Part shown: in pieces, positions 1 through 59,945 of the stretch
How positions within the stretch are numbered: position 1 is the stretch's first letter
Layout: each line of letters begins with the position of its first letter
Notes under the pieces: generated by a model
Told to the model about the DNA's origin: nothing
What the model saw: only the letters and a program-made list of their open reading frames with translations
Database searches by the model: none
Made by a program: the position numbers and the translations under genes
NCBI GenBank assembly: GCA_951406725.2
Contig: OX597816.1
Coordinates: 44,640,001 to 44,704,000, forward strand
DNA length: 64,000 bases
Origin: Octopus vulgaris
Lineage: Eukaryota
Reading direction: 5' to 3'

Positions 1-377
1 AGGTCGCGGTCTTAAAGCGACGAAAATATTTTGACAAATTAAACTTAAATGCTGAAGTGAATCGAACGGCTTTTGTGTGTTTCTTAAATGGCTTACAAAC
101 ACCTTCCACGCTGCAATTGTTTTTGTTTCAGCACACGATCTCAGATCAAATCACTTGCTATGCATGTACATCTCCGTCATTTATTACTTTTCTCATTTTG
201 TCAGTCTAACTCATATCCATTGTCCGGAAATCTTTCGTCACACATCTGTAACTTCTTCAGCGACACATTTCGTTTTCGTATGTGTTCTTGCCCCACTTTC
301 TCCATTCTGTTCTTTTAAGGTATATATCCTTATGTGCGCATTAGTTTGTGTCCTTGTTTGTGTGTGTTTGTATGCTT

Positions 378-1804: not shown

Positions 1805-2885
1805 ACAGGGATCTGTTCTTGGCCCCCTTTTATTTCTTGCATATGTTAATGTCATAGATGCCAACGTAAAGAATGCCACAGTGCTGAAATATGCAGATAA
1901 CATCAAGCTGTACTTCGAAATAAAGAGGACAGATTCTGTACCCTATAGAACTTTACTGCAATCAGACCTGGACACAATGCAGCAGTGGATCATGGACTGG
2001 CAACTCAGGCTGACTGTGGACAAAAGTACTGGCAACTCAGGCTGACTGTGGACAAATGCACCAGCATGCATTTTGGGAGGAAAATCCCAGCGTCTACTTA
2101 CTCCCTCCACAACACTAATCAAAAAAAGTCTTCTTGTGAACGTGACCTGGGCATTATTGTCGACAGCGACTTGTGTTGGACGAAACACAGCTAAAATTGC
2201 CACGAAAGCTGGGGGTGTTTTGGCATCACTTACCAAGTCCTTTGTGAGCCGCTCTCCGGCTCTCTATCTGAGGCTTTATATAGCTATGGCGCGGCCTCAC
2301 CTGGAATTTGCATCACCGGCCTGGAACCCCTATCTTGCCCAAGATGTTAATCGTCTGGAAACCATTCAGCGACGTGCAACCAAGAGAATACCCTCCATCA
2401 GGCATTTGCCATACTCTGAACGCCTTAATTCTTTGGGCATGGATACATTGAAACTCCGACGTCTGGCACCTGACTTGGCAGACACCCATAAAATTATTAA
2501 CCATCTTACTAACAATAACACTGAGCACATTTTCAAACTCCACCTGTCTAACACCCGTGGGCATGTTTACAAAGTCAGAAAACAGCACAGCTCCCATGAC
2601 TTTCGGAAACATTTTTTCACGCTAAGAGTTGCTGAAGTATAAAACAAACTGCCGGCATCAGTTGTTAGTTGTCGGAGCATTGCATCCTTCAAAACTTCCA
2701 TGCTTCCTGAGATTCGCCTACACTACACCTGATTTTCTCCCCTCCATACACACGCAAGCATGTATCTGACTCATACATTGTTCACTTCCCAGATATTTGT
2801 ACATTACTGCATATACCTTATACGCACTTTTGACAAGGTGTGGTGCACCTGAGCACTGTATACATTAATTTCATTATTTCATTTC
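1805..2885 (+). mobile_element. 5'-truncated CR1/L2-group LINE: RT C-terminal half plus 3' UTR (decayed)
   Basis: Translates QGSVLGPLLFLAYVN...KYADNIKLY (YADD-like)...LQSDLD...W...ERDLGIIVDSDL, then ORF 2073-2642 ...RPHLEFASPAWNPY...LETIQRRATKRI...YSERL...TRGH...FFTLRV. Frameshifts present, with a ~32-bp internal tandem duplication near 1996-2057. Confidence 0.9.
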
Positions 2886-40734: not shown

Positions 40735-40945
40735 AATCCAAACAAGAAAACACAGAAAAAAACACAGTAACACGAGGACGTGAAACCATTAAAGTATTAT
40801 TTGACGCTCAGGAAAGAAGGTAAGGAGGGTTTAACGTTTCGAGCGGAGCTCTTCGTCGGAAACAAGGAGAAGGAAAGATCCCGAGAAGGGAAGACAGAGG
40901 AAAAAAATATTTTTGCTGGTGGTGCTCAAGAGATCACATGTTGAA
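40735..40945 (-). mobile_element. Short Penelope-derived element with minimal hammerhead-like motif
   Basis: Minus strand 40863-40829 reads GTTT CCGACGA A GAGC TCC GCTC GAAA CGTT AAAC. Flanked by TA tracts. Confidence 0.7.
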
Positions 40946-47175: not shown

Positions 47176-47362
47176 GCATGTATATATATACTATATACTA
47201 TTTATTATTCAGTTGAACGCCACAAATACATTCCCAAGTAAGTTTATATACATACATACATACATACACATATATATGTGTGTGTGTGTATGCGTGTGTT
47301 TTTCTCTCCATTTTTTCCTCTTGATCTTTTCTGTCGAAGATCAAGAGAAAAAGCACACGCAT

Positions 47363-47433
<71 letters not shown>

Positions 47434-47447
47434 TGTATGTATGTATG

Positions 47448-47514
<67 letters not shown>

Positions 47515-47517
<3 letters not shown>

Positions 47518-48495
47518 CAACTAATATAGGATAAAATTTTTCGAAAAAATTCTATCAATGTCCAGCGTATTAAAAAATACCTTTAAAGGTTACATTTATA
47601 AACCACTTATAAACAAGGGCAAAAGAAAAAATTCTAATGCCAAATATGCCAAAAATAGACAAATCGTCAATAACCATATAATTTATCACTATAAGCACGC
47701 GTCTCGAAGTAAGCCGACTGTAATCTCTAAAAAATTTCGTTATTATCGTATTGGTCCCAATTTCAGAGTTAATTCATAAGAGTTTTCTCCTTGCCAGCTA
47801 TAAATACAGTAAGAAATAAATGAAATACTTACTTATACCCATGGAAAAAGCAAACACTAAGTCCTGGGCACACTTAAGTACCCCAAATATATCCAAAATA
47901 GAAATTCTCCAGCACACCTCGAGACACGTGCGATCGGACTGAAACTCTCATAGAGTGAGAGAGTCCGGAAGTGAACACTATTAAATTTACATCTAATATA
48001 GGATAAAATTTTTCGAAAAAATTCTCTCAATGGCCAAAATACCTTTAAAGGTTAAATTTAAAAACAACTTATAAACAAGGGCAAAAGAAAAACATTCTAA
48101 TGCCAAATATGCCGAAAATAGACAAATCGTCAATAGCCATATAATTTTTCACTATAAGTACATACGTGTCGCGAGATGTGCTGGATAATTTTTATTTTGA
48201 ATATATATTTGGGGTACTTAAGTGTGCCCAGGACTTAGTGTTTGCTTATTCCATGGGTATAAGTAAGTATTTCATTTATTTCTTACCATATTTATCGCTG
48301 ACGAGGAGAAAATTCTTATGAATTAACTCTGAAATTGGGACCAATACGATAATAACGGAATCTTTTAGAGATTTCTGTCGGCTTACTTCTAGACGTGTGC
48401 TTATAGTGATAAATTATATGGTTATTGACGATTTATCTATTTTCGGCATATTTGGCATTAGAATTTTCTTTTGCCCTTGTTTATAAGTTGTTTGT
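47515..48495. mobile_element. Penelope-like pLTR array: unit 47515-47985, partial direct copy 47986-48160, inverted copy 48164-48495
   Basis: Direct and inverted colinearity seen. Embedded between two long (TA)n tracts and contains a hammerhead motif. Confidence 0.85.
48292..48352 (+). ncRNA. Type I hammerhead ribozyme
   Basis: Helix I TTATCG/CGATAA; core CTGACGA (48298-48304); helix II GGAG..AATTC-TTAT-GAATT..CTCT; GAAA (48331-48334); helix III ATTG-GGAC-CAAT; cleavage triplet AUA ending at 48346. Confidence 0.75.
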
Positions 48496-48511
48496 ATACA
48501 CACACACACAC

Positions 48512-48596
<85 letters not shown>

Positions 48597-58540: not shown

Positions 58541-58837
58541 TTGGCGGTGATCTTGGAAAAACTGTTAGCACGCCGGAAAAAACTCTTAGCGGCATTTCGT
58601 CCGTCTTTACGTTGTTAGGTCTATAAAATAAGTACCAGTTGAGTACTGGGATCGATGAAATCGACTTTACTTTTACCTAAAAGTTTCAGGCCTTGTACCT
58701 TTAGAAGATAGAGGTCGGTTTTTGCCTTCCGTCCTTTTGAGATCTATGAAAGAAATTCCAGTTGAGCTCTGAGAATGATACAATCAACTAACTCCCACCA
58801 CCAAAATTTAGAAGGGATTGTTATTTCTATTGTTGTT

Positions 58838-59945
58838 TTAGTCCAGTACTTGCCATGAAGGGGCTTTTCTTGCCATCGTTTTATCATGGTCCGTTGTTGT
58901 TCTAGTTTTAGTTTTGATTTCATTTGCTTTATAGCTTTTGTTATGTTTTCTTCTTCTTTTTTTTCTTCTTCGTCTTCTTCTTCTTCTTCATATTTGTTAG
59001 GTGGTATGATTTCTTGTTTGTATTTGTCAGCTTCCTTAAATACCGAGAACAATTTTTTGTTTTGCTCGTGTTTTGCCGCTATTTGTATCAGTTTTCCTTG
59101 CTTCTGAAGTAGGTATTTTCGCAGTCCTAAGGAGGTTATTTTATAGTAGTTTTCCAGCTTTATAAGGCCTCTACCACTTTCTATACGTTGTATATATAGC
59201 CTTTCTATGTCAGATTATTGGTGATGCATTCTCGATCCTGTCATTATTTTTCTTGTTTTTCTATCTATTTTGGTTAGTTCATTTAGCGTCCAGATAAGGA
59301 TATTGTAGCTGTAACTTATAACTGGGACGGCTAAAGCGTTAATACCTATTATCTTGTTTTTAGCATTGAGCTCTGTTTTTAGTATTGATCTAACTCGTCT
59401 ATAGTATTCCTTCTTTATTTTCTCTTTCATTTGTGTGTGTTGTGTCTTATCTAATTCATGGATTCCTAAATGTTTGTAAGTTTGGCTTTGGTCTAATTCT
59501 CTTATTTCATTTGCTTTATCTAGTGTGATGTTGCTACTCTTAACTAGTTTTCCTCTTTTCAGGGTTACTTTGGCGCATTTTTCTAATCCAAATTTCATAT
59601 CTATTTCTTTGGTGAATCCATGAACTGTCTTTAGTAGTGTTTCCAGCTGTTTGTCATTTGTAGCGTATAGTTTTAGGTCATCCATATATAAAAGGTAACT
59701 GATCGTTTTGCCGTAACATTTATATCCGCATCCAGTTCTATTTAGCATATCAGATAGAGGTGACAGTGCCATCAGAAAAGGAGTGGAGAGAGCGTGTCTC
59801 CCTGGAATATTCCTCTTCTAATGGGGATGGCTTTGGTTTTCACGAGTCCCTCATTTGTTTGGAGCTGTAGCACTGCTTGCCATTTATTCATAATGTCCTA
59901 TGTATTTTATAATTGTTGGTGCTACTTTGTTTATGGCTAGTGCTT
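58838..59945 (-). mobile_element. R4/Dong-clade LINE RT fragment
   Basis: IRRGIFQGDTLSPLL...LLYMDDLKLYA...FGLEKCAK...YKHLGI...LNAKNKIIGINALAVPVISYS...DRKTRKIMT...WQEKPLHGKY (includes ORF 59215-59772). Confidence 0.92.

What the first reader, a model, noticed from the sequence alone, without database searches (positions are those of the whole stretch)
47515..48495. Direct-plus-inverted pLTR-like array with an apparently intact hammerhead ribozyme
Seen: a ~470-bp unit, a ~175-bp direct restart, then a ~330-bp inverted copy, all between (TA)n tracts. The inverted copy has a complete type I hammerhead at 48292-48352 (CUGACGA, long helix II closed by G-U, GAAA, 4-bp helix III, AUA cleavage site). 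The opposite-strand copy (~47742-47803) has a mutated core (CUGGCAA). Established: this terminal architecture plus hammerhead is typical of Penelope-like elements and retrozymes. Inference: a non-coding, self-cleaving mobile RNA unit with an unusually long helix II, paired in cis with its own antisense copy, which could block folding or create dsRNA.
Basis: partly seen in the sequence, partly recalled or inferred. Interest (0 to 1): 0.75.

Follow-up and report, generated by a model that had tools for sequence, protein, structure and literature searches.

The report
Decayed Penelope-type retrozyme insertion with hammerhead
This is one old, decaying copy of a protein-less jumping repeat, present in hundreds of copies in this animal genome, that carries a predicted self-cutting RNA; its back-to-back layout is likely the ordinary footprint of a Penelope-type copying enzyme, not a built-in antisense switch.

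Summary
Observation confirmed: a full unit (47515-47985), a partial tandem (47987-48161) and an inverted arm (48164-48496) lie between TA-type tracts. The + arm holds a complete type I hammerhead; the - copy has four private mutations. The ~470-bp unit is a dispersed non-coding family: at least 233 exact ribozyme-core copies in two subfamilies, whose differences keep the core and all 19 pairs. No coding sequence leads into the unit at 154 loci, and no autonomous partner was found. Inverted arms are routine (85 of 154 loci). In 54 of 57 readable two-armed insertions one arm ends at a short site and the other ~77 nt further on, the Penelope 'tail' signature. The window's two arms share four rare variants and then decayed equally (~3.5% each): one insertion event, no sign that the intact ribozyme is selected. 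The long helix II is normal for Penelope-type hammerheads. Cleavage and circular RNA are untested. Verdict: new member of a known kind (non-LTR retrozyme / non-autonomous Penelope-like element). The scan reported the same kind on other families of this genome.

The parts
47385..47514 (.). (TA)n/(TATG)n target tract at the 3' end of the main arm
47515..47985 (-). Full ~471-bp unit (main arm), ending at the long, tail-bearing 3' end; 4.1% from the subfamily A majority sequence
47515..47592 (-). ~77-nt optional 3' tail (unit positions ~395-472), absent from the inverted arm
47743..47803 (-). Hammerhead copy with broken core (CUGGCAA; A6 and G8 changed) and two broken pairs; predicted inactive
47987..48161 (-). 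5'-truncated upstream tandem copy (unit 288-471), the pseudo-LTR-like partial repeat; has no ribozyme
48164..48496 (+). Inverted 5'-truncated arm (unit 57-389), ending at the short, tail-less 3' end
48292..48352 (+). Complete type I hammerhead motif with near-palindromic helix III; predicted cut after 48346
48497..48594 (.). (AC)n then (AT)40 target tract at the 3' end of the inverted arm

Best explanation
The locus is a single old insertion of a ~470-nt non-coding, hammerhead-bearing repeat family, likely copied into a TA microsatellite in trans by a Penelope-like (PLE) reverse transcriptase-endonuclease. Shown: the family, the lack of an ORF, tandem head-to-tail units, TA targets, two fixed 3' ends, one short and one tailed end per two-armed insertion, a shared template haplotype in both arms, and equal decay since. 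Inferred: the enzyme cut both target strands and primed one cDNA at each of two start sites ~77 nt apart on the same RNA species, a circle or an uncleaved multimer, since copies run through the cut site and exceed one unit. Joining the two truncated cDNAs gave the inverted layout. Predicted: the ribozyme cuts multimeric transcripts into monomers, probably best as a dimer through its near-palindromic helix III. The intact + copy most likely survived by chance and would be blocked by the antisense arm in a read-through transcript.
For: Copy number: 87 exact core copies for subfamily A and 146 for B. Structure: 96.0% of cells paired over 61 distinct rows, covariation score 0.200 against 0.161 shuffled (0/500) and 0.048-0.073 when slid; double changes A-U/G-C in helix II and U-A/C-G in helix III. 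All 6 differences between the two majority ribozymes keep the core and all 19 pairs; random substitutions do so in 0.8% of simulations. The unit folded as a circle gives -140.7 kcal/mol, z about -10 against 40 shuffles. Of 64 arms reaching unit positions 1-6, 54 are preceded by the unit's own end and the other 10 share no coding upstream. End pairing: 54 of 57 readable two-armed loci are short+tailed, 25 of 26 in the set picked only by the exact ribozyme pattern (p=4e-7). The window's arms share 4 derived variants; none of 73 other arms has more than 2 of them; private changes are 11 and 12 in 331 nt. Intact 781-aa RT + GIY-YIG ORFs and hammerhead-bearing PLE ends exist in this genome. Literature match: partial tandem + inverted truncated copy + tail at one end + (TA)n bias (PMC8557442); two RT start sites and both strands cut and extended (PMC11167929).
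Against: No autonomous partner with a homologous terminal repeat was found in 46 GIY-YIG-anchored loci (one of them a family dimer locus) or 24 loci of a second RT family. The tail (~77 nt) is about twice the 30-40 bp described for PLEs. Three readable loci break the end rule: L114, L124, L169. Subfamily A has G.U where G10.1-C11.1 is the conserved pair. The ribozyme fold is not the predicted ground state: in the inverted arm folded alone, helix I pairs have probability about 0. The covariation rests on few independent events, and the measure 'pairs with a double change' was reached by 30 of 500 shuffles. Arrays are short (at most 851 bp, ~1.8 units), unlike multimer retrozymes. 5' truncations do not pile up at the cut site (2 of 82 against 6.8 expected). 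In PMC11167929 ribozyme mutants did not affect insertion in vitro, and 8 of 9 tested Xenopus retrozyme dimers did not cleave.
Confidence: 0.8

Rival explanations
1. The unit is the pseudo-LTR of an autonomous PLE whose coding copies are rare, lost or not sampled; the locus is a 5'-truncated insertion of that element.
For: All terminal hallmarks are those of PLEs. PMC4209133 says most such motifs are solitary and probably come from truncated PLEs. A CCATGGGT motif followed by a 5' splice-like site precedes the ribozyme both here and in the Neptune-like PLE of this genome.
Against: Upstream of unit position 1 is the unit's own end in 54 of 64 cases and never shared coding DNA. PLE protein matches in flanks (8 distinct loci: L005, L028, L054, L107, L122, L128, L134, L149) lie beyond an arm end, antisense, or cut mid-domain. 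No long ORF in a two-unit translation.
Confidence: 0.12
2. The inverted pair at this locus is functional: an intact ribozyme held off by a cis antisense arm, or a source of double-stranded RNA.
For: A + strand read-through transcript is predicted to pair 59 of the 61 ribozyme nucleotides with the other arm. One copy has 0 private changes in the ribozyme and the other has 4.
Against: Inverted arms are a family-wide by-product (85 of 154 loci). Both arms carry the same load of private changes (11 and 12). A 0-versus-4 split has two-sided p=0.125 (my arithmetic), and P(at most 1 change from the majority sequence) is 0.21.
Confidence: 0.05
3. The hammerhead is a vestigial or structural motif that does not cleave; the family spreads from uncleaved linear multimer transcripts.
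For: G.U at the base of helix II, weak helix III, competing folds, no 5'-end pile-up at the cut site, ribozyme-independent insertion in vitro. This rival concerns only the ribozyme step and is compatible with PLE mobilisation.
Against: Core and helices are kept across subfamilies 14% apart. The two bases that can pair only in a dimer are kept in 75 of 82 copies while the central two vary.
Confidence: 0.2

Closest known systems
Metazoan non-LTR retrozymes (PMC7229834; bioRxiv 10.64898/2026.07.22.740005)
   Same: Non-coding, AT-rich, few-hundred-bp unit with one type I hammerhead; head-to-tail repeats; strongly self-paired predicted fold; coexists with autonomous PLEs.
   Different: Unit of 465-475 bp is slightly above the 150-450 bp range of the 2020 paper (within 51-972 bp of the preprint); arrays stay under two units; circular RNA not shown; carries the full inverted-arm and tail footprint, which a term search of PMC7229834 did not find mentioned ('inverted' 0 hits).
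Endonuclease-bearing Penelope-like elements (Neptune, Penelope/Poseidon; PMC8557442, PMC11167929)
   Same: 5'-truncated partial tandem, adjacent inverted truncated copy, optional tail on one end, (TA)n targets, hammerhead upstream of the 3' end.
   Different: No RT or GIY-YIG ORF; tail ~77 nt rather than 30-40 bp; no sequence homology to the PLE ends sampled in this genome.
PLE hammerhead variants with small palindromic helix III (PMC4209133)
   Same: Type I, enlarged helix II, palindromic helix III suited to dimer cleavage, opposite-strand pairs a few hundred bp apart.
   Different: Helix III is longer (3 bp plus A-U as monomer; 10 pairs around a tandem G.A as dimer); G.U instead of G-C at the base of helix II in subfamily A.
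Non-autonomous Chlamys PLEs such as MRC1 (PMC8557442, passage seen)
   Same: Non-autonomous elements that form pLTRs and head-to-tail insertions.
   Different: Those are in green algae and resemble an autonomous family at the 3' end; no such partner was found here.

Membership tests
Type I hammerhead ribozyme | Core CUGANGA / GAAA / NUH in order | tested here: met
   48298-48346; core intact in 40 of 50 A and 28 of 32 B copies aligned without gaps
Type I hammerhead ribozyme | Three helices supported by pair-preserving variation | tested here: met
   few independent events
Type I hammerhead ribozyme | G10.1-C11.1 pair | tested here: not met
   G.U in this copy and in most of subfamily A; G-C in subfamily B (GU 36, GC 17, AU 5, other 3 of 61)
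Type I hammerhead ribozyme | Match to an Rfam hammerhead model | tested here: not met
   no hit
Type I hammerhead ribozyme | Self-cleavage at the predicted site | not testable with these tools
   needs an in vitro assay
Type I hammerhead ribozyme | Loop 1-loop 2 tertiary contact | not tested
   a possible helix I extension with a 2x2 loop is visible in the alignment but was not modelled
Non-LTR retrozyme | Non-coding unit of a few hundred bp with one type I hammerhead | tested here: met
Non-LTR retrozyme | Two consecutive units with complete ribozymes (the preprint's 'active' criterion) | tested here: not met
   not at this locus; met elsewhere in the family, e.g. L120 and two exact same-strand copies 464 bp apart on C10
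Non-LTR retrozyme | Highly self-paired monomer | tested here: met
   circular fold z about -10, 65% paired; pair-preserving changes along the long stem
Non-LTR retrozyme | Expressed as linear and circular monomer RNA | not testable with these tools
   only contigs of runs guessed to be RNA were available; a ligated junction equals the genomic tandem junction
Autonomous Penelope-like element | RT plus GIY-YIG ORF joined to the terminal repeat | tested here: not met
Autonomous Penelope-like element | Partial tandem, inverted truncated copy, tail on one end, (TA)n target | tested here: met
Non-autonomous PLE derivative | Homology to the pLTR of an autonomous family | tested here: inconclusive
   none in 70 PLE-anchored loci; sampling covered only some of the genome's PLE families

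The most novel reading that the evidence does not exclude
A protein-less ribozyme RNA that obeys a near-strict one-short, one-tailed rule shows that a PLE enzyme primes both cut DNA strands on the same RNA species, probably a circle, at two fixed sites ~77 nt apart. That would make this family direct genomic evidence for how animal retrozymes are mobilised and would define a minimal cis signal (unit ~330-472) for an in vitro PLE reaction.
Probability: 0.5. Interest if true: 0.5.

Novelty: new member of a known kind. Interest (0 to 1): 0.3.

Why it matters
That PLEs move animal retrozymes is proposed but rests on co-occurrence and terminal-repeat homology. A non-coding family that reproduces the whole PLE insertion footprint, with a countable end-pairing rule, supports that route and offers a short test substrate. 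This particular locus is an old, decayed copy with no sign of a function of its own, and the same kind was noted on several younger families of this genome.

Tried and rejected
Rfam: no hammerhead hit; only microsatellite-driven miRNA matches below threshold. Partner search: GIY-YIG profile gave several Neptune-like families and an RT fragment query gave another family; all have their own hammerheads but none shares sequence with the unit. The family B copy next to an intact PLE (L092) and the RT fragment upstream of L054 are separate insertions. A head-to-head pair 3 kb apart (L137) is one element split by other DNA with no PLE protein match. First-look candidate counts (3808, 4729, 2751) are not copy numbers and were not used as such. 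Expression: no RNA holder listed; contigs of runs guessed to be RNA lie on family sequence but are short, mixed across copies and show no ends, strand or locus, so they count neither for nor against. No splice-type joint was interpretable. A 5'-end pile-up at the cut site was looked for and not found. The covariance model could not be run on the whole genome, so more distant subfamilies were not surveyed. No host gene was identified: seven window ORFs gave only one RT remnant in Pfam.

Full report
Observation. In the ribozyme's sense the locus reads: inverted arm (unit 57-389, + strand, 48164-48496), partial tandem (unit 288-471, - strand, 47987-48161), full unit (1-471, - strand, 47515-47985). 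Both outer ends run into TA-type microsatellites. The + arm holds a complete type I hammerhead at 48292-48352 with the predicted cut after 48346. The - copy has a broken core. Rfam does not detect either copy, and simple folding does not give the ribozyme as the ground state.

Family. The window lies in a 2.8-Gb animal genome; that it is an octopus is my inference from size and repeat content and from other scan notes, not a tool result. DNA searches returned copies on many contigs at 88-93% to the window copy. A sister subfamily B, 86% identical at the majority level, turned up beside an intact PLE. Exact 37-nt core-to-GAAA matches number 87 (A) and 146 (B), with 0 for reversed controls, so the family has hundreds of ribozyme-bearing copies. 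Sampled copies average 94% (44 A loci) and 97% (30 B loci) to their majority sequences.

Ribozyme. I aligned 82 of 89 recovered copies; the 7 with length changes were left out. Over 61 distinct rows 96.0% of cells pair; cells paired, cells with a double change and covariation score exceed all 500 shuffles, while 'pairs with a double change' (30/500) and 'further pair types' (50/500) do not. The informative changes are A-U to G-C and G.U to G-C in helix II, U-A / U.G / C-G in helix III, and U-A to U.G in helix I. These are few events inherited by many copies. All six differences between the A and B majority ribozymes keep the core and all 19 pairs, which random changes do in 0.8% of trials. Helix III is near-palindromic: two copies form a 10-pair duplex around a tandem G.A (-12.3 kcal/mol) while the 12-mer alone does not fold, and the G and C that can pair only in the dimer are kept in 75 of 82 copies. 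This matches the dimer model for PLE hammerheads, for which larger-than-usual helix II and opposite-strand pairs 100-700 bp apart are already described (PMC4209133, parts 1-2 of 4 read). The whole unit folds far better than shuffles (z about -10, 40 shuffles), with pair-preserving changes along its long stem; in that fold the ribozyme is not formed.

No coding partner in cis. A two-unit translation shows no long ORF. Of 64 arms that reach the unit's first bases, 54 are preceded by the unit's own end; the other 10 share no coding DNA. PLE protein matches in the flanks of eight loci are beyond an arm end, antisense or cut mid-domain. The genome does hold young PLEs with an intact 781-aa RT + GIY-YIG ORF and several other PLE families, each with its own hammerhead near the 3' end, but none of the 70 PLE-anchored loci shares a terminal repeat with this unit. 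The mobilising family is unidentified.

Insertion footprint. I classified 154 family loci, the window's included, after dropping 16 that were fetched twice or are segmental duplicates. Eighty-five have an inverted arm. 3' ends fall at two places, unit ~385-396 and ~460-472, as a rule followed by (TA)n; single-armed copies split 32 short, 31 tailed, 6 unreadable. Of 85 two-armed loci 28 have an unreadable end; of the other 57, 54 pair one short with one tailed end. In the 80 loci fetched only by the exact ribozyme pattern the count is 25 of 26 (p=4e-7). The exceptions are L114, L124 and L169. A tail at one end, an adjacent inverted truncated copy and (TA)n bias are described for PLEs (PMC8557442, passages), and a purified PLE protein cuts and extends both strands and starts at two sites that bound the tail (PMC11167929, parts 1-2 of 4). 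The tail here is about twice as long as the 30-40 bp reported.

This locus. The two arms share four variants that differ from the majority sequence; none of 73 other arms carries more than two. They then gained 11 and 12 private changes in 331 nt. So both came from one template variant in one event and decayed at the same rate. The ribozyme has 0 private changes in one arm and 4 in the other, which chance allows (two-sided p=0.125, my arithmetic; one search gives 0.21 by a second route).

Mechanism. Shown: family, non-coding tandem unit, TA targets, two ends, end pairing, common template. Inferred: mobilisation in trans by a PLE RT-endonuclease priming on both cut strands; a circular or uncleaved multimeric template, because copies cross the cut site and reach 1.8 units. 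Predicted and untested: cleavage, dimer dependence, circular RNA. Against an obligatory role for cleavage: no 5'-end pile-up at the cut site, ribozyme-independent insertion in vitro, and 8 of 9 inactive dimers in the retrozyme preprint.

Comparison and novelty. It works like a PLE-mobilised non-LTR retrozyme (PMC7229834, parts 2-3 of 6 and passages; bioRxiv 10.64898/2026.07.22.740005, parts 1-3 of 5). This locus fails the preprint's two-ribozyme criterion, which other copies of the family meet; it is not an autonomous PLE. Five literature searches found no description of this family; supplements were not read and Repbase/Dfam could not be searched, so it may already be catalogued. Earlier scan notes describe the same kind, including two-armed insertions with two fixed starts, on 360-bp and 485-495-bp families of this genome; a sequence look-up found none on this family. 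I had seen the end pairing before that look-up; the shared-template test followed it. Verdict: real, new member of a known kind, modest interest.

Noticed in passing
window 40820-40870 (- strand): A second, unrelated minimal hammerhead (core CCGACGA, short helix II, palindromic ACGU helix III) in a short element between TA tracts; close relatives occur in L027, L028, L030 and L077.
   Followed up: partly
window 215-270 (- strand): A hammerhead-like motif (CUGAAGA ... GAAA) found by the same scan; may be another family or chance.
   Followed up: no
family unit positions 134-149 (window ~47837-47852 and ~48241-48256): 5' truncation and inversion points are enriched around a CCATGG palindrome near a hairpin tip, just before a 5' splice-like site: 23 of 118 against ~10 expected, window chosen after seeing the data. 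Could be a transcription start or a template-switch hot spot.
   Followed up: partly
L091-L098 (e.g. L094 768-4468): Young Neptune-like PLE (copies 97-99% alike) with two ORFs: a 479-aa upstream ORF without a convincing Pfam match and the 781-aa RT-GIY-YIG ORF; its end has repeated CCAAT/CRE-like boxes, a TATA box and a U3-A8 variant hammerhead.
   Followed up: partly
L100, L064, L103, L124, L079, L218-L239: At least six further hammerhead families with palindromic helix III and a variable first pair of helix II (G.U, A.C, U.U, A.G).
   Followed up: no
window 47270-47392: A short imperfect palindrome between microsatellites, just left of the element; source of the spurious miRNA hits.
   Followed up: no
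window 58744-59817 (-) and 2046-2642 (+): Non-LTR retrotransposon remnants; the first has an RVT_1 match, the second looks like a LINE C-terminus by recall only.
   Followed up: no
G000 C8 106.81-106.96 Mb (L053, L055, L056, L058): Six near-identical copies of one insertion within ~150 kb, a local segmental amplification.
   Followed up: no
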